Shown: positions 20,705 through 31,528 of the stretch, piece by piece
Numbering within the stretch: position 1 is the stretch's first letter
How the letters are laid out: every line of letters starts with the position of its first letter
From: Escherichia phage vB_EcoM-720R4
Strand: one strand, 5' to 3'
Length of the DNA: 35,056 nucleotides
Sequence record: ON470603.1
The notes under the pieces: generated by a model
What the model was told of the DNA's origin: nothing
The model's database searches: none
What the model saw: only the letters and a program-made list of their open reading frames with translations
Translations under genes and position numbers: made by a program

Positions 20705-21031
20705 TTACTCCTTCGAGCTACCAAATTTGTTACCGATTACTCGCATTGCAGCCCCACGAATAGCATCGACACCGATCAGCCCCACGCCACCACCAATGGC
20801 AACAGAAAGCGATTTAGGCCATCCGACATATTCAAGAGCGGATGCAAAGGTCAGCGTCAGAGCGCCACATAGCAAAATCTCGAGCGTTTTTCGCTTCCAG
20901 CCACCACCACCGCCAAAATAGGCGATGCGCAAACCAGCCATAACGATCGACATAATCACTGCACCCAGCGGTGTGTCTCCACGCCACCAGCTCTGGACCA
21001 AGTCCAGCCAGGTATTTGGGTTATGAGGCAT
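20705..21031 (-). CDS. holin (three predicted transmembrane segments)
   Basis: Hydrophobic ORF immediately upstream of the endolysin; start set at the internal ATG (MPHNPN...); the longer track ORF would start at a GTG overlapping the methyltransferase. Confidence 0.55.
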   Translation of the reverse strand: MPHNPNTWLDLVQSWWRGDTPLGAVIMSIVMAGLRIAYFGGGGGWKRKTLEILLCGALTLTFASALEYVGWPKSLSVAIGGGVGLIGVDAIRGAAMRVIGNKFGSSKE

Positions 21032-26754: not shown

Positions 26755-27215
26755 TCTTCACCTGATGCAGCCCGCTTACTGCTTTTCCGTAAACACCGTT
26801 CACGACGCGCCAGAAAATTGTTTCGTTCTGGCTGGGAGTGGCTTTCACGGAATGCCGCCATCCACACCGTTGCAGCACGACGGTATAAGCCCCTCGACTC
26901 CAGTTCTTCAGCCTGGCGGGTCAGGCACAAAATCACCCGGGGGTCGTTAGTGCCGACATAGAACTTGCGCACAGGTCTGGTTTCACGAACTGGTTGTGGT
27001 TCCGGCTCCTGCGCTCTCTCAGTCAGGCGCGAGAAATGTCTGCGTGTATCTCCTTCACAACGGTGAGCCACACGCCCACTCTGACGTAACTTGCTTGCTG
27101 ACTGCAGAACGCGCTGCCGTGAGTAACCTGCAAAAGCATCCGCAATGTCTCCGGAAGTACACCCCGGATGGGCTTCAATGAATTTCTGAACTTCATTCAA
27201 AAGACTCATGATCAC
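26721..27215 (-). CDS. PerC/Pch-family transcriptional regulator-like protein (YfdN-like)
   Basis: C-terminal region LESRGLYRRAATVWMAAF...RRERCL resembles the PerC-family motif; 164 aa. Confidence 0.6.
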   Translation of the reverse strand: MIMSLLNEVQKFIEAHPGCTSGDIADAFAGYSRQRVLQSASKLRQSGRVAHRCEGDTRRHFSRLTERAQEPEPQPVRETRPVRKFYVGTNDPRVILCLTRQAEELESRGLYRRAATVWMAAFRESHSQPERNNFLARRERCLRKSSKRAASGEEWYLSGNYVGA

Positions 27216-28153
27216 CCCCTGAATCCTGCCGGGATCTGGCTGTAGTCCACGTTGTCGTAACTGGATTTGAAGTACGGATCTTCACGTTTTTCTGTGTATG
27301 TGCTGACGGACGGCGATAAGCGCAGGGAAAGCTCATCCCATTTTTCCCGCAGCTTCGACGGGCTGAGCACGTTACGGCACCAGAACGGATCGCGGCTGAC
27401 GCGGCTGTACATCTCGCAGATTTGTTTGTGAGTACGACCATCCTGCACACACATCAGGCGAATTTCGTTTGCCCAGGCTGTCCAGTTCGGTTCTTTGGGA
27501 CGAACCACCTCGCCGTCACATTCGGCAGCCTGCTCGTACAGGGCGATGATTTTTTTCCAGAGCCACTGTGCGCAGGTCAAATCATCCTGCGTCCCCCACT
27601 GGCGTTTTTTAGGGCTGAATACAACCGCATCAGGATGGCGAGTTAAAAAATCCTGTTCAGCCGTCTGCGTGTCCGGTTGCGAAGCGTCCGGACGAGAAGG
27701 TTTTTTATCTGACGGATCATGTTTTGATTTTACTGACGGATCCCCGCCAGATTCTGACGGGTGAAAACCCGCTTTTTTGCCAGATTTCGACGCATCAAAT
27801 TTTGACGGGTCAGATTTTGATGCGTCAGATTTTGACGGGTCAGAATCTGACAGTTGAGAAAATGCCGCTGCCTGAAGCTTCGCAACGTTAAGCTGATAAA
27901 CATTCGACGCATTGCGGTTACCCTGGCGACGCGCCTTACGCGTTAACCAGCCTTCTGCTTCCAGCCGTGCGATAGCCGTTCTGACGGTACTCATCCCCGC
28001 GCCAATCTGGCGGGCAATGGTTTCAATTGATGGCCAGCACACACCTTCGTCATTACTGAAATCAGCCAGGCGGGCCATAATTGCCACGCTGGATAATTTC
28101 ATGCCTGACGCTGCGCAACCATCCCATACATAGCCGGTTAATTTAGTGCTCAT
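27212..28153 (-). CDS. replication initiation protein (O-like, HTH N-terminal domain, iteron-containing)
   Basis: 313-aa ORF with N-terminal helix-turn-helix region and a central Ser/Asp/Lys repeat linker encoded by DNA iterons; located downstream of cro and the CII/YdaT-like gene. Confidence 0.7.
   Translation of the reverse strand: MSTKLTGYVWDGCAASGMKLSSVAIMARLADFSNDEGVCWPSIETIARQIGAGMSTVRTAIARLEAEGWLTRKARRQGNRNASNVYQLNVAKLQAAAFSQLSDSDPSKSDASKSDPSKFDASKSGKKAGFHPSESGGDPSVKSKHDPSDKKPSRPDASQPDTQTAEQDFLTRHPDAVVFSPKKRQWGTQDDLTCAQWLWKKIIALYEQAAECDGEVVRPKEPNWTAWANEIRLMCVQDGRTHKQICEMYSRVSRDPFWCRNVLSPSKLREKWDELSLRLSPSVSTYTEKREDPYFKSSYDNVDYSQIPAGFRG
27722..27853. repeat. iteron array (about 7 direct repeats, consensus TCAGATTTTGACGGG) inside the O-like gene: candidate replication origin
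   Basis: Tandem 14-15-bp repeats read directly (e.g. TCAAATTTTGACGGG TCAGATTTTGATGCG TCAGATTTTGACGGG TCAGAATCTGACAG). Confidence 0.55.
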
Positions 28154-28501
28154 GACCGACCTCTATTTCCCTGAATTTACGACGAAACTGTTCGAGCGGA
28201 CTGAAGCACTCATGCTCATAGCCTTCGCGGAGGTAGATAACCCGTTGTGTTTCCGGTTCCCAACGAATGACTCTGACGGGCACTCCGTAGTGATCTTTGA
28301 ACCAGCGGTTAACTTGTCGCAAAGGACTGTCTCCTTCTGCCGGTTGAAATCCCCCACAGCCCACTCTGCAAAGCTGTGGGTTACAATTTCCCTGTCACCT
28401 GGTACATTCACTGCATAGCAATACTCCACCTTCGCTTTTCCACCCGGTACAGGAAGCGCAATCAGTTGCGAGCGACGGTAGTGTGTTGTTAAACTGTTCA
28501 T
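28143..28501 (-). pseudogene. small early gene apparently split by a frameshift at a G5 run (two overlapping ORFs, 28163-28501 and 28143-28364)
   Basis: The N-terminal half of one frame and the C-terminal half of the other both look protein-like; the frames switch at the C5/G5 run at 28351-28355. Confidence 0.35.
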
Positions 28502-29082
28502 GCGTTAGTTTCTCCACAACCAGAAGCAATCGACGCCACGACGCCCGGAGCTGCACACTCGCGGGCGTTACTCTTTTCCGGCGCACAAAAAACACGAAAT
28601 AACAGTGTTAAATGCTCCTGCCACTTCGCCATTACTTGGTAGCTGTTCTCTTCGATTTGCTCACGCTCAGCTTGGTCAATAACTCCATCAGCAGTTGCCT
28701 TGCGTAAGTACTGGGAATGCTTGCCAATCCATTCTATTGACTCCATCAGCCGCTGATTAATGTCACCATTGTCAATGTCATCAATGACCACCAGCGGCAC
28801 AAACACCCCATTACTACGACGGGCTATTGCATCTGTTACATGCCTGGTACCACTGGCATCCTGTAAAACCATGGCCCACTCAAGTGGAAAAATTTGATCC
28901 CCACCGCTACGCAGTCTGTTATGCAATTGATCTTTTGCTGGGGTGATATCATCAGATTTATACAAACCAAGAATTTCTGCTGCTTCCTCATAGCCATGAG
29001 GTAAATCAGCAATCGTTCTTCGTATTGCTGCCACCAGCCATGCTGGTTGTTTATCAACTTTCCATTCAGGTTCTTTACCCAC
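28498..29082 (-). CDS. YdaT-like / phage CII-like regulatory protein
   Basis: 194-aa ORF immediately downstream of the Cro-like gene; assignment mainly by position and loose resemblance. Confidence 0.5.
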
Positions 29083-29109
29083 GGTTAATTCCTCATTTCT
29101 GTGGTGTTT

Positions 29110-29307
29110 TTATGCCGCAGCACTGTTAGTCTTTTGATATAAAGACACGTCAACTTTCAGTTTCCCGTTAGTAATTTTTTCTAACTGGTACGCTCGGCCT
29201 TCAGGAATAATCTCAGGCCACTCTGAAACAGACGGATGCTTAATACCTAGGGCTTCGGCGGTTTTACAAACTCCGCCGAAATAATTAATCACGTCGGATT
29301 TCCGCAT
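29110..29307 (-). CDS. Cro-like repressor (YdaS/Cro family HTH)
   Basis: 65-aa ORF divergent from the CI-like gene; HTH-like segment GGVCKTAEALGIKHPSVSEW; RBS GGGAGA. Confidence 0.7.
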   Translation of the reverse strand: MRKSDVINYFGGVCKTAEALGIKHPSVSEWPEIIPEGRAYQLEKITNGKLKVDVSLYQKTNSAAA

Positions 29308-29402
29308 TTCTGTCTCCCGTTAAATTACGTTAAGCAGAAATGTAGGATATCCAACATACCAATGTCAAGAATCCTACATGGGCATGTGGTAGGATTGCCT
29401 AC
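29308..29402. promoter_or_regulatory. right operator/promoter region: PR-like promoter for cro (minus strand: TTGACA 29368-29363, TACATT 29344-29339), 17-bp operator TGTAGGATATCCAACAT (29341-29357) plus additional TGTAGGAT-type half-sites
   Basis: Divergent cI/cro intergenic region; near-palindromic operator with GGATATCC core; promoter hexamers read directly. Confidence 0.6.
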
Positions 29403-30056
29403 ATGATGAACATGAGTGATCGTATTCGCCAAAGGCGAAAAGAACTGAACCTGACACAACAAGCACTGGCTGATTTGACTGGTGTGAACCGTGTCACGGT
29501 TACTGGATGGGAAAAGGACGACTACCAACCAAATGGAGCCAACCTTCAAGCCCTAGCCAACGCACTTAAATGCGATCCTCTGTGGCTTGTTAGCGGAAAA
29601 GGCTCGCCTGAACCAAAGATAAATCTAAAACCTGAAATATTCGCAGTTAAAAAAGTCCCCCTCATCTCGTGGGTTCAGGCGGGTTCATGGACAATGACGG
29701 AGCCTGGTGTCAGGAAAGAAGATGCTGAAGAGTGGGTTTATACTACCGCCCTTGTATCAGAAATGGCATTTGCACTACGGGTCCGTGGTGATTCAATGAC
29801 CAATCCCCTCGGCTCACCATCGATACCAGAAGGTTCTATCGTTATCGTAGAGCCAGATATTATTGATACAGAGTGTATTAACGGAAAAATCGTTGTTGCC
29901 CATATCAATGGTGGGCAAGAAGCGACACTCAAAAAATTTGTTGAGGACTGGCCGAACAGGTATCTCGTCCCACTAAATCCTAACTATAAAACTATTGAAT
30001 GCGGTGAGAACTGCAGAATAGTTGGTCTTGTCAAACAAGTAATAATGGATTTTTGA
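29403..30056 (+). CDS. CI-like repressor (N-terminal HTH, C-terminal S24 LexA-like peptidase domain)
   Basis: 217-aa ORF with HTH (LTQQALADLTGVNRVTVTGWE) and a C-terminal domain with Ser ... Lys catalytic residues (GDSM ... TLKKF); RBS AGGA 7 nt upstream. Confidence 0.9.
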   Translation: MMNMSDRIRQRRKELNLTQQALADLTGVNRVTVTGWEKDDYQPNGANLQALANALKCDPLWLVSGKGSPEPKINLKPEIFAVKKVPLISWVQAGSWTMTEPGVRKEDAEEWVYTTALVSEMAFALRVRGDSMTNPLGSPSIPEGSIVIVEPDIIDTECINGKIVVAHINGGQEATLKKFVEDWPNRYLVPLNPNYKTIECGENCRIVGLVKQVIMDF

Positions 30057-30080
30057 CACATCTTCCTCACTATCGCAAAA

Positions 30081-30102
30081 CCGGGGTATCCCCGGTTTTT
30101 TT
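30081..30102 (+). terminator. rho-independent terminator after cI
   Basis: CCGGGG-TAT-CCCCGG stem followed by TTTTTTT, 25 nt after the cI stop. Confidence 0.7.
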
Positions 30103-30119
30103 ATGAGCCTATCTTTTTA

Positions 30120-30172
30120 TGTAGGATAACCAACATAAACTCTTGACACTCACATGTTGGATATCCTACATT
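30120..30172 (+). promoter_or_regulatory. left operator/promoter region: PL-like promoter (TTGACA 30143-30148, TACATT 30167-30172) flanked by two 17-bp operators (30120-30136 variant; 30154-30170 identical to the OR operator, inverted)
   Basis: The exact 17-mer of the right operator recurs here as its reverse complement; same -35/-10 hexamers and spacing as the PR-like promoter. Confidence 0.55.
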
Positions 30173-30289
30173 TGTTTTTAGAGTTGTGGTGAATGCGCAG
30201 GCTGATGCGCGAAAGACATTGCAGCTATTGCGGAAAAGAGCTGTTCGGCGGGGCCATTAAACGCCCGTATCTGGAGGTTAAAGAACAAA

Positions 30290-30565
30290 ATGAAAGTCCA
30301 GATTTTAAACAATAGTGGTGAAGTCGTTTGGTCATACGACATAGCCGCTCCTGTAGATCAGAGCGGCGATAGCTGGACCAATGGGAAACATCAGATTATG
30401 GCTGGAGTTGTATTCTCTTTACGCCGTGCTTTGGAACAGGCTGAAGTATTTCCATCAGACCCTGAATGGAAATGGCCTTTTTCTATTTGTCCAAATTCGG
30501 AGAGCACATTTCAGAAAATTGGTCAGAAAGTCGCACTCGAAGAGCATCAGCCAACTGTTTCCTGA
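30290..30565 (+). CDS. hypothetical protein, first ORF of the leftward (PL-like) operon
   Basis: 91-aa ORF with GGAGG RBS; acidic, not N-like; its 3' end overlaps a convergent minus-strand ORF. Confidence 0.35.
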   Translation: MKVQILNNSGEVVWSYDIAAPVDQSGDSWTNGKHQIMAGVVFSLRRALEQAEVFPSDPEWKWPFSICPNSESTFQKIGQKVALEEHQPTVS

Positions 30566-30728
30566 TTTTTTCAGGTAACTCGTCGGCATCGCAGAAACAA
30601 CAACGCTCGATCATGTTGAAAGCCGATTCGTAGAACTGTTTCTGCTGAGTGTCGCTGAGACAGGAAAAGAGCGACGTTACGATGATTTTATTAATTGCAT
30701 TATCAAGTTCTTTTTCATCAAAAGTCAT
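30483..30728 (-). CDS. hypothetical protein encoded antisense to the PL-like operon
   Basis: 81-aa ORF with strong RBS (AAAGGAAAA, 6 nt spacer); opposite orientation to all neighbouring early-left genes. Confidence 0.4.
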   Translation of the reverse strand: MTFDEKELDNAINKIIVTSLFSCLSDTQQKQFYESAFNMIERCCFCDADELPEKIRKQLADALRVRLSDQFSEMCSPNLDK

Positions 30729-31165
30729 TTGATTTTCCTTTTATGTATACGGGCTTAAAAGGATACCACCGAGCCTGAAGTGGTGAAAAGACAGGCACAT
30801 AACAGCTAAGTATTTTCAACCAGAGAGAATCCTTAGCGTTGTGGTGAATGCGGCTCAGCGCACGCGGGTTAAGGTTGAGGCTGACAGTCGACCTTCTGTG
30901 GATACCCACCCGCCTGGTGTGCAACCTTCGCCAGGCACCGGGAGGCACCCGGCACCACAACTTTATGCTGTGTGTAGTCCTCGCGGTACCAGTTTGTACA
31001 CTTGCTTCCGGCTGGTACCGCTCTTTTTACAAAACAGAGAAGAGCATCACCGGACGACGGGCTCATAACCCAATCCATCCGGGCGGCTGCCACCGCAGGT
31101 GTTCTTCTCTGTTTTGTGGAGAAACCAACCGACCTTGCAGGGTCGATATGATGAGGAGCAGCAAA

Positions 31166-31528
31166 ATGGCTAGCGAACGCAGTACTGATGTGCAGGCATT
31201 TATCGGGGAGCTGGACGGCGGCGTATTTGAAACCAAAATCGGCGCAGTTCTCAGTGAAGTCGCTTCCGGTGTGATGAACACGAAAACCAAAGGGAAGGTC
31301 TCACTCAACCTGGAAATCGAACCATTTGATGAGAACCGTGTGAAAATCAAACACAAACTCTCATATGTTCGCCCGACTAACCGCGGGAAAATTTCCGAAG
31401 AAGACACCACCGAAACGCCGATGTATGTCAATCGCGGTGGTCGCCTGACTATTCTGCAGGAAGACCAGGGACAATTACTGACTCTTGCCGGTGAACCTGA
31501 CGGAAAACTCCGCGCAGCAGGTCATTAA
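31166..31528 (+). CDS. hypothetical conserved phage protein
   Basis: Start set at ATG 31166 preceded by GAGGAG; the track ORF 30848-31528 extends upstream through a structured non-coding region and is probably not translated there. Confidence 0.5.
   Translation: MASERSTDVQAFIGELDGGVFETKIGAVLSEVASGVMNTKTKGKVSLNLEIEPFDENRVKIKHKLSYVRPTNRGKISEEDTTETPMYVNRGGRLTILQEDQGQLLTLAGEPDGKLRAAGH

What the first reader, a model, noticed from the sequence alone, without database searches (positions are those of the whole stretch)
29308..30172. Immunity region with identical 17-bp operators and identical promoter geometry on both sides of cI
The 17-mer TGTAGGATATCCAACAT (palindromic core GGATATCC) occurs at 29341-29357 and, as its exact reverse complement, at 30154-30170, with a one-mismatch variant at 30120-30136. 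Both the PR-like promoter (minus strand, toward cro) and the PL-like promoter (plus strand) read TTGACA-N18-TACATT, with the operator overlapping the spacer and -10. cI is followed by its own terminator. This gives a directly testable model of the genetic switch and of the immunity specificity of this phage.
Basis: seen in the sequence. Interest (0 to 1): 0.45.

Follow-up and report, generated by a model that had tools for sequence, protein, structure and literature searches.

The report
P22-like prophage switch, new operator specificity
This is the on/off control region of a dormant E. coli virus, built like the textbook phage P22 switch but reading a different, so far uncharacterised DNA password; it is real and testable, but it is an ordinary kind of thing.

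Summary
The 17-mer occurs at 29341-57 and, reverse-complemented, at 30154-70, with a one-mismatch copy at 30120-36 (0.05 expected). Both promoters read TTGACA-N18-TACATT, and cI ends in a strong terminator.

The interpretation as a lambdoid immunity region holds, with refinements:
- **Unit:** an 18-bp near-palindrome, ATGTWGGAT|ATCCWACAT.
- **Sites:** five, not three. O_R1 is 29340-57, a weak O_R2 is 29362-79, O_R3 is 29387-404 (overlapping the cI ATG), O_L2 is 30119-36 and O_L1 is 30154-71.
- **Conservation:** the site blocks are conserved in Enterobacter, Pantoea and Erwinia relatives, while the spacers have diverged.
- **Family:** repressor N-domain, Cro, site length, spacings (22/25/35 bp versus 23/25/35) and P_L construction match phage P22/21 immC. 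The half-site differs (ATGTAGG versus ATTTAAG).
- **Co-variation:** across ten genomes the half-site tracks the recognition helix, giving three specificity classes.

Differences from P22: no O_L3, P_R copies the P_L geometry, and no N gene. P_L instead runs into an STnc100-like RNA fragment.

The cassette is near-identical in 140 of 5,426 complete E. coli genomes, in phages SKA5 and Lys8385Vzw, and in three Stx2c phages. No paper held the operator sequence. Verdict: a new member of a known kind, of modest interest.

The parts
28498..29082 (-). cII-like (YmfL-like) gene, second gene of the P_R operon. Its N-terminal two-thirds belong to the swapped immunity cassette.
   Evidence: PHROG 101 'CII-like transcriptional activator', E 3e-62. 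Pfam Phage_CP76, E 1e-6. Homology to the heteroimmune phages SfIV and PhiR49_1 ends at 28568-28628.
29110..29307 (-). cro (65 aa, P22 Cro type)
   Evidence: Pfam P22_Cro E 7.6e-22. PDB 1RZS P22 Cro E 7e-12 over residues 1-59.
29339..29368 (-). P_R: -35 TTGACA (29368-63), 18-nt spacer, -10 TACATT (29344-39). The start is predicted near 29332. The leader of about 25 nt carries the SD GGGAGA.
   Evidence: 10/12 match. Both hexamers are invariant in four genera. The start site and SD are read from the sequence and are inferred.
29340..29357 (.). O_R1, ATGTAGGATATCCAACAT. It lies in the P_R spacer and -10, centred near -16.5.
   Evidence: score 31.8. 18/18 columns are invariant in four genera. It is the exact reverse complement of O_L1.
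29362..29379 (.). O_R2 (weak, provisional), ATGTCAAGAATCCTACAT. The right half is a perfect half-site; the left half carries the P_R -35.
   Evidence: Matrix score 6.7, not significant alone (1.35 expected per window). 15/18 columns invariant. The right half is a good half-site in the window, E. soli, mEp390 and YeP1. Its position matches P22 O_R2.
29387..29404 (.). O_R3, TGGTAGGATTGCCTACAT. Its last two bases are the AT of the cI ATG.
   Evidence: score 21.9. 17/18 columns invariant. The sequence is identical in mEp390. The position is equivalent to P22 O_R3, which abuts the c2 ATG.
29387..29395 (+). Candidate P_RM extended -10 (TGgTAGGAT) inside O_R3. The A of the cI ATG (29403) lies 8 nt after the hexamer, so a leaderless or near-leaderless cI mRNA is predicted.
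   Evidence: O_R3 departs from the operator consensus (TG instead of AT at positions 1-2) in 6 of 6 genomes of this specificity class. No -35 match was found. Inferred, not mapped.
29403..30056 (+). cI repressor (217 aa): an HTH N-domain of P22 C2 type and a LexA/lambda-cI-type self-cleaving C-domain (Ala93-Gly94, Ser131, Lys177).
   Evidence: 100% identical to the repressor of phages SKA5, Lys8385Vzw and three Stx2c phages.
30077..30106 (+). Intrinsic terminator of cI: a 10-bp stem, a 3-nt loop and U7.
   Evidence: I21; dG -17, z -4.1. All seven enterobacterial relatives and the phage-21-type locus have a different GC hairpin plus T-run at this position; the P22-type (SE1) locus has the hairpin without a clear T-run.
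30119..30136 (.). O_L2, ATGTAGGATAACCAACAT. It lies upstream of the P_L -35, centred near -52.
   Evidence: score 29.3. 11/18 columns are invariant, but every relative has a 13-14/14 consensus match at this spot. It starts 35 bp from O_L1, as in P22.
30143..30172 (+). P_L: -35 TTGACA, 18-nt spacer, -10 TACATT (the last 5 nt of O_L1 plus T). The start is predicted at 30179/30180.
   Evidence: The -35 is 6/6 invariant. The same construction is seen in all ten genomes compared.
30154..30171 (.). O_L1, ATGTTGGATATCCTACAT. It lies in the P_L spacer and -10.
   Evidence: score 31.8. 15/18 columns invariant.
30180..30268 (+). P_L leader: the 5' fragment of an STnc100-like structured RNA unit, beginning at the predicted +1.
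   Evidence: It is 97-100% identical to a piece in P1, mEp460, Lys8385Vzw and Stx2a phages. In Lys8385Vzw it continues into a roughly 195-nt unit with a closing stem and a terminator. No Rfam hit.
30269..30982 (.). A 714-bp insertion relative to Lys8385Vzw and mEp460. It holds orf91 (+, 30290-30565), the convergent orf81 (-, 30483-30728), and the 5' part of the STnc100 match.
   Evidence: blastn boundaries. (PHROGs 3195 and 3311, function unknown).
30808..31030 (+). STnc100-family sRNA gene ending in a terminator hairpin (30985-31020 plus a U-run). It lies inside the leftward operon, ahead of yfdP/Q/R.
   Evidence: Rfam RF02076, 49.1 bits against a gathering score of 47, E 8e-8.

Best explanation
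This is the immunity (lysis-lysogeny) switch of a lambdoid, SfV/SfIV/mEp460-like temperate phage. It is a P22/phage-21-type immC cassette with its own operator specificity.

**Proposed mechanism**
1. Dimers of the 217-aa cI read 18-bp near-palindromes, ATGTWGGAT|ATCCWACAT. The helix-turn-helix contacts the outer bases. The A/T-rich centre is probably read indirectly, as in P22.
2. At O_R, cI fills O_R1 (29340-57), which sits between the -35 and -10 of P_R. It probably also fills the weak O_R2 (29362-79), which lies over the -35. Together these shut off cro and the cII-like gene.
3. At O_L, cI fills O_L1 (30154-71, the same sequence as O_R1) and O_L2 (30119-36), which flank and overlap P_L.
4. 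O_R3 (29387-404) covers the candidate P_RM -10 and the cI start. cI can therefore limit its own synthesis there, and Cro can shut off cI.
5. cI is probably made from a leaderless or near-leaderless message, and its transcription stops at its own terminator (30077-30106).
6. SOS-activated RecA triggers cI self-cleavage at Ala93-Gly94, using Ser131 and Lys177. That releases P_R and P_L.
7. P_L then transcribes an STnc100-like RNA fragment, two small genes and an STnc100-family sRNA with a terminator. No N-type antiterminator gene follows it.

**Shown:** the sequences, geometry, conservation, homology and co-variation.
**Inferred:** actual binding, the affinity order (predicted O_R1 = O_L1 > O_L2 > O_R3 > O_R2), the transcription start sites, P_RM, and cooperativity.
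For: **Motif statistics.** Six strand-hits at three loci against 0.05 expected. Four sites score 22-32 in a half-site matrix, against a shuffle-maximum mean of 9.0.

**Promoters.** Two promoters at 10/12, of identical geometry.

**Proteins.** HTH_3 + Peptidase_S24. The N-domain matches P22 C2 (2R1J/3JXB, E 6e-14) and the C-domain matches lambda cI (3BDN, E 7e-25). Cro matches P22 Cro.

**Footprint in four genera.** Invariant columns: O_R1 18/18, O_R2 15/18, O_R3 17/18, O_L2 11/18, O_L1 15/18, P_L -35 6/6. Spacers: 0/4, 0/7, 1/6, 1/5. The cro leader is 5/32 and the sequence after O_L1 is 2/29.

**Layout compared with P22/21.** P22 has exactly six 18-bp sites. Its O_R spacings are 23 and 25 bp, against 22 and 25 here. 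O_L1 to O_L2 is 35 bp in both. In both, O_R3 sits next to the repressor ATG and the P_L -10 is formed by the end of O_L1 plus a T.

**Co-variation across ten genomes.**
- Helix SNVAISQ goes with half-site ATTTAAG.
- Helix (N/S)RVTVTG goes with ATGT(A/T/C)(G/A)G.
- Helix SRVSVTK goes with ATGTA(A/C)C.

**P22 reference facts.** The consensus is ATTTAAGATATCTTAAAT. Positions 2-7 and 12-17 are contacted and the centre is not. A T-to-C change at position 3 lowers binding at least 16-fold (PMC5175364; PMC4267663). This operator has G at position 3, so heteroimmunity to P22 is expected.

**Cleavage residues.** Ala-Gly, Ser and Lys are invariant in the alignment with P22, phage 21 and lambda.

**Terminator.** dG -17, z -4.1.

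**Evidence the cassette works.** The same cassette is present in phages deposited as complete genomes: SKA5, Lys8385Vzw and three Stx2c phages.
Against: - There are no binding or transcript data of any kind.
- O_R2 is not significant on its own (score 6.7; 1.35 such sites expected per window). Its invariant left half could be conserved simply because it carries the P_R -35. Its right half is degenerate in Pantoea and Erwinia.
- The matrix was built from the four strong sites, so their scores are circular.
- The footprint uses only four related sequences, and one of them (Erwinia) carries a frameshifted cI.
- P_RM has no recognisable -35 and rests on one conserved dinucleotide.
- Unlike P22, there is no O_L3.
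- P_R is placed about 15 bp differently relative to the operators. The P22 P_R position was read by me from the sequence, not taken from a paper.
- No antiterminator was found, so how P_L transcription passes the terminator at about 31030 to reach yfdP/Q/R is unexplained.
Confidence: 0.85

Rival explanations
1. The right operator has two sites rather than three. Only O_R1 and O_R3 are real repressor sites. The middle block (29362-79) is conserved because it carries the P_R -35, plus a chance half-site.
For: The matrix score of 6.7 is within chance (1.35 expected per window). The invariant part coincides with TGTCAA, the -35. The right half carries changes at two contacted positions in both Erwinia (ATCTTACCT) and Pantoea (TTCTTACCT), plus one central change in Pantoea.
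Against: - The position matches P22 O_R2 to within 1 bp (22 and 25 bp spacing against 23 and 25).
- The right half is a perfect or near-perfect half-site in the window, E. soli, mEp390 and YeP1.
- YeP1 uses GTCAG half-sites elsewhere, which are close to the GTCAA of the left half.
- O_R1 and O_R3 centres are 47 bp apart (4.5 helical turns), an awkward spacing for direct cooperation without a middle site.
Confidence: 0.3
2. The downstream promoter (30143-72) is mainly a repressor-controlled promoter for a small structured RNA of the STnc100/PasD family. It is not the start of a lambda-style, N-dependent early-left operon. In this window that RNA gene has been broken by a 714-bp insertion.
For: - Homology to the widely shared RNA piece begins exactly at the predicted +1 (30180).
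- In Lys8385Vzw, which has the same cassette, the promoter is followed by a roughly 195-nt unit with a 9-bp closing stem and a strong terminator.
- GTTGTGGTGAATGCG recurs at the 5' end of the Rfam STnc100 match.
- No N-like protein was found.
Against: - The unit is not recognised by the Rfam STnc100 model.
- Its fold is not exceptional (z -1.8).
- Copies are 97-100% identical, so no covariation test is possible.
- In mEp390, YeP1, AH07, E. soli and Erwinia the same promoter type is followed by other leaders, several resembling the e14 leader and the start of the P22 leader. The RNA is therefore an exchangeable passenger, not part of the switch.
- The yfdP/Q/R, exonuclease and excision genes lie downstream on the same strand and need a promoter.
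Confidence: 0.3
3. The inverted 40-nt repeat is only a relic of a promoter duplication or recombination event. The palindromes are not protein-binding sites.
For: The two promoter/operator units are 83% identical over 40 nt (I1), as a recent duplication would leave. The region is highly mosaic.
Against: - There are five sites, two of them (O_R3, O_L2) outside the 40-nt repeat.
- The sites are conserved while the spacers are scrambled across four genera.
- The sites change in step with the repressor's recognition helix in other phages.
- The layout equals that of the experimentally defined P22 operators.
Confidence: 0.03

Closest known systems
Phage P22 immC region (c2 repressor, Cro, O_R1-3, O_L1-3) and the near-identical imm21 region of phage 21
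   Same: - The repressor N-domain is homologous (43-44% identity over the whole protein; 2R1J/3JXB E 6e-14), and Cro is of the same fold family (1RZS).
[quoted passage not shown]
- Seven of nine half-site bases are the same (ATGTAGGAT against ATTTAAGAT).
- O_R spacings are 22 and 25 bp against 23 and 25. O_L1 to O_L2 is 35 bp in both.
- O_R3 sits at the repressor ATG in both.
- The P_L -35 lies between O_L2 and O_L1, and the -10 is made from the end of O_L1 plus a T.
- Val33 and Asn46 of P22 C2 are retained, and the RecA-type cleavage residues are retained.
   Different: - Half-site positions 3 and 6 are G instead of T and A.
- The recognition helix is NRVTVTG instead of SNVAISQ.
- Glu44 and Glu48, which P22 uses for indirect readout, are Gln and Ala here.
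- There is no O_L3.
- The P_R -35 lies at the left of O_R2, so O_R1 sits in the spacer as in lambda. In P22 it lies at the right end of O_R2, with O_R1 over the start site (my reading).
- No gene 24/N antiterminator follows P_L.
Phage lambda O_R/O_L-cI-Cro switch
   Same: - The gene order and logic are the same: cro <- P_R/O_R/P_RM -> cI -> P_L/O_L.
- The C-domain is homologous (3BDN E 7e-25), with the Ala-Gly cleavage site and the Ser/Lys dyad.
- Operator centres relative to P_R are about -16.5, -38.5 and -63.5, against about -17, -41 and -64 in lambda (lambda values from established knowledge).
- The predicted leaderless cI message resembles lambda P_RM.
   Different: - The N-domain and operators are unrelated in sequence: 17-bp TATCACCGC-type sites in lambda against 18-bp sites here.
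- O_L has two sites, not three.
- O_L and O_R are about 0.8 kb apart, not 2.4 kb. There is no rexAB and no N/nutL.
Stx phage 933W switch (Koudelka laboratory)
   Same: Three O_R sites and only two O_L sites, with no O_L3 (PMC5977221). Like 933W, this cassette is carried by Shiga-toxin phages (Stx2c_EH0430, EH0474, JNE082796).
   Different: The repressor specificity and operator sequences differ. Whether this repressor lacks O_R1-O_R2 cooperativity, or has a strong O_R3 ('hair trigger'), is unknown.
Phage mEp390 immunity region (uncharacterised)
   Same: The recognition helix (NRVTVTG) is identical, O_R3 is identical, and the GTAGGAT/GTAAGAT half-sites and promoter geometry are the same. It probably has the same or an overlapping immunity specificity.
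   Different: The repressor is only 60% identical overall, and the phage backbone is different (HK97-like). No published analysis of its switch was found.
e14 cryptic prophage switch of E. coli K-12 (ymfK/cohE - ymfT/croE)
   Same: The neighbouring ymfL (56% identity) and ymfM modules are the same, and so is the general layout: terminator, then TTGACA, then operators downstream of the repressor.
   Different: The repressor N-domain and Cro are unrelated. The operators are of the TGTACC..GGTACA type. It is a heteroimmune cassette in a related backbone.

Membership tests
P22/21-type immC lambdoid switch | Repressor with a P22 C2-type HTH N-domain and an S24 self-cleaving C-domain | tested here: met
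   Pfam HTH_3 1e-15 and Peptidase_S24 4e-25. PDB 2R1J/3JXB/1ADR at E about 5e-14, and 3BDN at 7e-25. Ala-Gly, Ser and Lys are invariant.
P22/21-type immC lambdoid switch | Divergently transcribed Cro of the P22 Cro (all-alpha) family | tested here: met
   Pfam P22_Cro 7.6e-22. PDB 1RZS 7e-12.
P22/21-type immC lambdoid switch | 18-bp rotationally symmetric operators with contacted outer bases and an A/T-rich uncontacted centre | tested here: met
   The sequence shows ATGTWGGAT|ATCCWACAT with centre ATAT or ATAA. The P22 reference facts come from PMC5175364 and PMC4267663. The contacts themselves were not tested.
P22/21-type immC lambdoid switch | Three sites in O_R at about 23 and 25 bp spacing, with O_R3 next to the repressor start codon | tested here: inconclusive
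   O_R1 and O_R3 are clear and spaced 22 + 25 bp. O_R3 overlaps the ATG. O_R2 is weak and rests on position and conservation only.
P22/21-type immC lambdoid switch | Three sites in O_L | tested here: not met
   Only O_L1 and O_L2 are present. The terminator T-run ends 13-20 nt before O_L2 in the window and its relatives, and no third match was found.
P22/21-type immC lambdoid switch | Same immunity specificity as P22/21 (half-site ATTTAAG) | tested here: not met
   No P22-type site lies in the immunity region, and no window-type site lies in the P22 locus. The half-site differs at positions 3 and 6, and a position-3 change alone lowers P22R binding at least 16-fold. This is therefore a separate specificity class within the family.
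P22/21-type immC lambdoid switch | P_L followed by an N-type antiterminator gene and nutL | tested here: not met
   No antiterminator family hit for any ORF in 30172-31528. The leader is an STnc100-like RNA fragment. A nut-like site was not excluded rigorously.
P22/21-type immC lambdoid switch | Repressor and Cro actually bind the sites and control P_R, P_L and P_RM | not testable with these tools
   This needs EMSA or footprinting, reporter fusions and 5' end mapping.
Rfam RF02076 STnc100 sRNA | Score at or above the family gathering threshold | tested here: met
   Window 30808-31030 scores 49.1 bits against a threshold of 47, full length 1-206.
Rfam RF02076 STnc100 sRNA | The same test for the P_L-proximal 86-nt leader (30180-30268) and its full-length form in Lys8385Vzw | tested here: not met
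   No STnc100 hit, even at E <= 10. The resemblance is architectural only: a shared 15-nt 5' end, a closing stem and a shared terminator.
HK022 put-type antiterminator RNA | Sequence similarity to putL located just downstream of P_L | tested here: not met
   blastn with word size 7 against the HK022 nun-P_L-cI-P_R region gave only chance matches. Structural similarity was not tested.

The most novel reading that the evidence does not exclude
In this immunity type the repressor-controlled leftward promoter does not lead into an N/nut system. It directly transcribes an STnc100/PasD-family structured RNA. That unit is intact in Lys8385Vzw and the Stx2c phages, and split by a 714-bp insertion here. 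Loss of cI on SOS induction would then release a phage RNA that acts either as a trans-acting regulator of host or phage genes, or as a put-like cis element. A put-like element would let RNA polymerase read through the terminator at about 31030 into yfdP/Q/R and the recombination genes without any N protein.
Probability: 0.15. Interest if true: 0.55.

Novelty: new member of a known kind. Interest (0 to 1): 0.3.

Why it matters
**Annotation and Stx phages.** The work gives a complete, base-level and falsifiable map of the switch for an immunity type found in about 2.6% of complete E. coli genomes. The same type is carried by inducible phages, including Shiga-toxin 2c phages. In Stx phages, the number and relative strength of operators (three O_R, two O_L and no O_L3, as in 933W) has been linked to how easily toxin phages are induced.

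**Protein-DNA recognition.** P22 C2 is one of the best-studied models of direct and indirect readout. Here nature supplies a graded series on the same scaffold, with three helix and half-site classes. The 'valine' and Asn46 are kept, but the TTAA valine cleft and the Glu44/Glu48 pair are changed. That makes a ready-made specificity-swap experiment.

**Limits.** None of this overturns current understanding. It is a well-behaved new member of a textbook family.

Tried and rejected
1. **HK022 put-like antiterminator as the P_L leader.** No sequence similarity to the HK022 nun-P_L-cI interval, and no Rfam family at E <= 10. The STnc100/PasD literature says nothing about P_L, repressors or antitermination. 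I dropped this as an explanation and keep it only as a low-probability reading.
2. **The 40-aa ORF 30193-30315 (Arg-rich N-terminus) as an N-like protein.** It has no family hit. Its reading frame is cut to 25 aa in the P1 and mEp460 copies. There is no usable SD. Rejected.
3. **e14 (K-12) as the same immunity type.** Rejected. The YmfK N-domain and YmfT are unrelated and the operators differ.
4. **Further operator copies elsewhere in the prophage.** None found. The best other matrix hit (20812-29, score 12.5) is within the shuffle range.
5. **Literature searches.** The operator sequence, the leader sequence and mEp390 turned up no relevant paper. A search for the P22 P_RM position found nothing usable, and one search failed on syntax.
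6. **Failed or repeated computations.** The first matrix scan timed out and was redone. Including the Erwinia cI in the protein alignment failed because the gene is frameshifted.
7. **'Termite-leu' and microRNA Rfam matches** over the terminator and operators are far below threshold and were dismissed.
Full report
**1. The observation**

Reading 28800-30700 shows TGTAGGATATCCAACAT at 29341-57. Its exact reverse complement is at 30154-70, and TGTAGGATAACCAACAT is at 30120-36. A scan of the whole 35-kb window allowing up to 3 mismatches finds six strand-hits, all at these three loci. Shuffles gave 0.05 expected, and none reached six.

The promoter scan returns exactly the two promoters described. 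Each reads TTGACA-N18-TACATT at 10/12: 30143-72 on the + strand and 29368-39 on the - strand. The two units form a 40-nt inverted repeat.

The cI terminator is a perfect 10-bp stem (30077-86/30090-99) followed by a U-run. Its dG is -17 kcal/mol and z is -4.1.

Two things were missed. The unit is an 18-bp near-palindrome, ATGTWGGAT|ATCCWACAT. There are also more sites. TGGTAGGATTGCCTACAT at 29387-404 overlaps the cI ATG. A weak site, ATGTCAAGAATCCTACAT, lies at 29362-79.

In a half-site matrix the four strong sites score 31.8, 31.8, 29.3 and 21.9, against a shuffle-maximum mean of 9.0 (sd 3.1). The weak site scores 6.7, which chance alone would give 1.35 times per window. No other part of the window holds a credible copy.

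**2. The genes**

The ORF at 29403-30056 has HTH_3 and Peptidase_S24 domains. Its N-domain matches the solved P22 C2 N-domain (2R1J, 3JXB, 1ADR; E about 5e-14). Its C-domain matches lambda cI (3BDN, E 7e-25), and the Ala-Gly cleavage site and the Ser/Lys dyad are aligned.

The divergent 65-aa gene belongs to Pfam P22_Cro (E 8e-22) and matches P22 Cro, 1RZS. The next gene is a CII-like activator family member related to e14 YmfL.

The setting is an SfV/SfIV/mEp460-like prophage.

**3. Phylogenetic footprint**

A scan of one genome per species found relatives of cI in three other genera:
- Erwinia tracheiphila (90% identity; the gene is frameshifted)
- Enterobacter soli (84%)
- Pantoea brenneri (76%)

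In alignments of the non-coding DNA the invariant columns were counted:

| Region | Invariant columns |
|---|---|
| O_R1 | 18/18 |
| O_R2 | 15/18 |
| O_R3 | 17/18 |
| O_L2 | 11/18 |
| O_L1 | 15/18 |
| P_L -35 | 6/6 |
| Spacers | 0/4, 0/7, 1/6, 1/5 |
| cro leader | 5/32 |
| After O_L1 | 2/29 |

The sample is small and the sequences are related. Even so, conserved blocks separated by scrambled spacers are what operators should look like. O_R3 and O_L2 lie outside the P_R and P_L hexamers, so promoter conservation cannot explain them.

**4. Family assignment**

The nearest characterised repressors are P22 C2 and phage 21 cI, at 43-44% identity.

The literature gives the P22 reference points. There are six natural 18-bp operators with consensus ATTTAAGATATCTTAAAT. 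[quoted passage not shown] Positions 2-7 and 12-17 are contacted and the central four bases are read indirectly. The key residues are Val33, Gln37, Glu42, Glu44, Asn46 and Glu48. A T-to-C change at position 3 lowers binding at least 16-fold (PMC5175364; PMC4267663).

Scanning a P22-type locus (phage SE1) and the imm21 locus (DE3) recovers exactly six sites in each. The geometry compares as follows:

| Feature | P22-type locus | This window |
|---|---|---|
| O_R start-to-start spacing | 23 and 25 bp | 22 and 25 bp |
| O_R3 and repressor ATG | abuts the c2 ATG | last two bases are the AT of the ATG |
| O_L1 to O_L2 | 35 bp | 35 bp |
| P_L -35 | between O_L2 and O_L1 | between O_L2 and O_L1 |
| P_L -10 | last 5 nt of O_L1 + T | last 5 nt of O_L1 + T |

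The half-site shares seven of nine bases with P22 (ATGTAGGAT against ATTTAAGAT). It differs at positions 3 and 6.

The recognition helix differs accordingly. P22 S31-N32-V33-A34-I35-S36-Q37 becomes N29-R30-V31-T32-V33-T34-G35. The valine and Asn46 are kept, but Glu44 and Glu48 become Gln and Ala.

**5. Co-variation**

Deposited phages supply a graded series:

| Genome(s) | cI identity to the window | Recognition helix | Half-sites |
|---|---|---|---|
| Window, E. soli, Pantoea, Erwinia | 76-100% | NRVTVTG | ATGTWGG |
| mEp390 | 60% | NRVTVTG | GTAGGAT/GTAAGAT; O_R3 identical to the window |
| Yersinia phage YeP1 | 64% | SRVTVTG | GTAGG/GTCAG/GTTGG |
| Klebsiella ST101-KPC2phi6.3, Pantoea AH07 | 50-51% | SRVSVTK | ATGTAAC/ATGTACC |
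| P22-type and 21-type | 43-44% | SNVAISQ | ATTTAAG |

Using the shared architecture as a coordinate frame, an operator-like 18-mer is found at the O_L1, O_L2 and O_R3 positions in all ten genomes.

The DNA sites therefore change when the reading helix changes, and stay when it stays. This is the strongest available evidence, short of an experiment, that these are the repressor's operators.

**6. Differences from P22**
- There is no O_L3. The terminator's T-run ends 13-20 nt before O_L2 in the window and its relatives. The Stx phage 933W also lacks O_L3 (PMC5977221).
- P_R is built like P_L. O_R1 lies in the spacer and -10, centred near -16.5, which is lambda-like. In the P22-type locus the only TTGAC-like hexamer facing cro lies at the right end of O_R2. 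That would put O_R1 over the start site. This is my reading, not a literature value.
- No N-type antiterminator follows P_L.

**7. P_RM**

No consensus promoter faces cI. However, O_R3's left half reads TGGTAGGAT, not the consensus ATGTAGGAT, in all six genomes of this specificity class. This conserved departure from the operator consensus creates an extended -10 (TGnTAGGAT). The A of the cI ATG lies 8 nt after the hexamer.

I therefore propose a weak promoter giving a leaderless or near-leaderless message, occluded by O_R3, as at lambda P_RM. The same AGGA could serve as a Shine-Dalgarno for transcripts that arrive from further upstream. All of this is inference.

**8. Cassette boundaries and what P_L drives**

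SfIV, PhiR49_1 and mEp460 have flanks 97-99% identical to the window but different immunity regions. Homology stops at 28568-28628, inside the cII-like gene, and resumes at 30766. The exchangeable cassette is therefore roughly 28.6-30.77 kb.

Homology to a widely distributed 86-bp piece begins at 30180, which is the predicted +1 of P_L. That piece occurs in P1 between tRNA-Thr and tciA, in mEp460, and in Stx2a phages. In all, 925 of 5,426 E. coli genomes match some part of the query, mostly through this piece.

In Lys8385Vzw, which has the same cassette, the piece continues for 62 nt. It closes a 9-bp stem (GUUGUGGUG...CACCACAAC) and ends in a strong terminator, giving a unit of about 195 nt.

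In the window, 714 bp (30269-30982) are inserted between the 5' piece and that terminator. The insertion holds:
- orf91 (PHROG 3195)
- the convergent orf81 (PHROG 3311)
- the 5' part of a bona fide STnc100 match (30808-31030; 49.1 bits against a gathering score of 47)

The 86-nt piece shares its first 15 nt with the STnc100 copy, but Rfam does not recognise it. A put-like role was tested at the sequence level and not supported. The literature treats STnc100 as a prophage sRNA related to PasD, with no mention of P_L. How transcription passes the terminator at about 31030 is unexplained.

**9. Distribution and novelty**

The cassette is at least 99% identical in 140 of 5,426 complete E. coli genomes. 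It is also present in phages SKA5 and Lys8385Vzw and in three Stx2c phages, where cI is 100% identical.

No paper in the library holds the operator sequence in a phage context. None describes the mEp390 switch.

This is an uncharacterised immunity specificity inside a very well-known family: a new member of a known kind.

**10. Verdict**

Interest is modest, at 0.3. The model is unusually complete and testable, and it bears on Stx2c phage induction and on P22-type DNA recognition. A specialist would not be surprised by it.

Noticed in passing
window 30180-30268; L015 (Lys8385Vzw) 4579-4780; L003 (mEp460) 2498-2650; L004 (P1) 2001-2150: An 86-bp piece that starts exactly at the predicted P_L +1 is 97-100% identical in P1 (beside its tRNA genes), mEp460, Stx2a phages and hundreds of E. 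coli genomes. Elsewhere it is the 5' part of a roughly 195-nt unit with a 9-bp closing stem and a strong terminator. The architecture is STnc100-like, but Rfam does not recognise it and no paper held its sequence.
   Followed up: partly
window 30808-31030 (+): A full-length Rfam STnc100 match (49.1 bits; gathering score 47) lies inside the leftward operon, ahead of yfdP/Q/R, and ends in a terminator hairpin. How P_L transcription gets past it is unclear.
   Followed up: partly
window 30269-30982: A 714-bp insertion relative to Lys8385Vzw and mEp460 carries two convergent, overlapping small genes: orf91 (+, PHROG 3195) and orf81 (-, PHROG 3311). Both are of unknown function. It looks like a moron-like module that splits the RNA unit.
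   Followed up: partly
window 28568-28628 and 30766: These are the sharp mosaic boundaries of the immunity cassette against the heteroimmune phages SfIV and PhiR49_1, whose flanks are 97-99% identical. The left junction lies inside the cII-like (YmfL-like) gene, so that protein is a natural chimera.
   Followed up: yes
window 27781-27844 (inside the O-like replication gene 27212-28153, - strand): There are four and a bit tandem copies of a 15-bp unit (CAGATTTTGACGGGT; 81% matches). They probably represent origin iterons inside the replication initiator gene, as in lambda.
   Followed up: no
L009 (Erwinia tracheiphila) 1501-2150: The cI homologue (90% identical) is frameshifted, with three in-frame stops. 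All five operator positions are still recognisable, so this is probably a decaying prophage.
   Followed up: no
L018 (mEp390) about 425-440: In mEp390 the annotated cro ATG begins only 2-3 nt after the predicted P_R -10 (TACTAT). Either the annotated start is wrong or cro is translated from a leaderless message.
   Followed up: no
window 20812-20829: ATTTAGGCCATCCGACAT is the best operator-like match outside the immunity region (matrix score 12.5). It is within the range of shuffled sequence and is probably chance.
   Followed up: no
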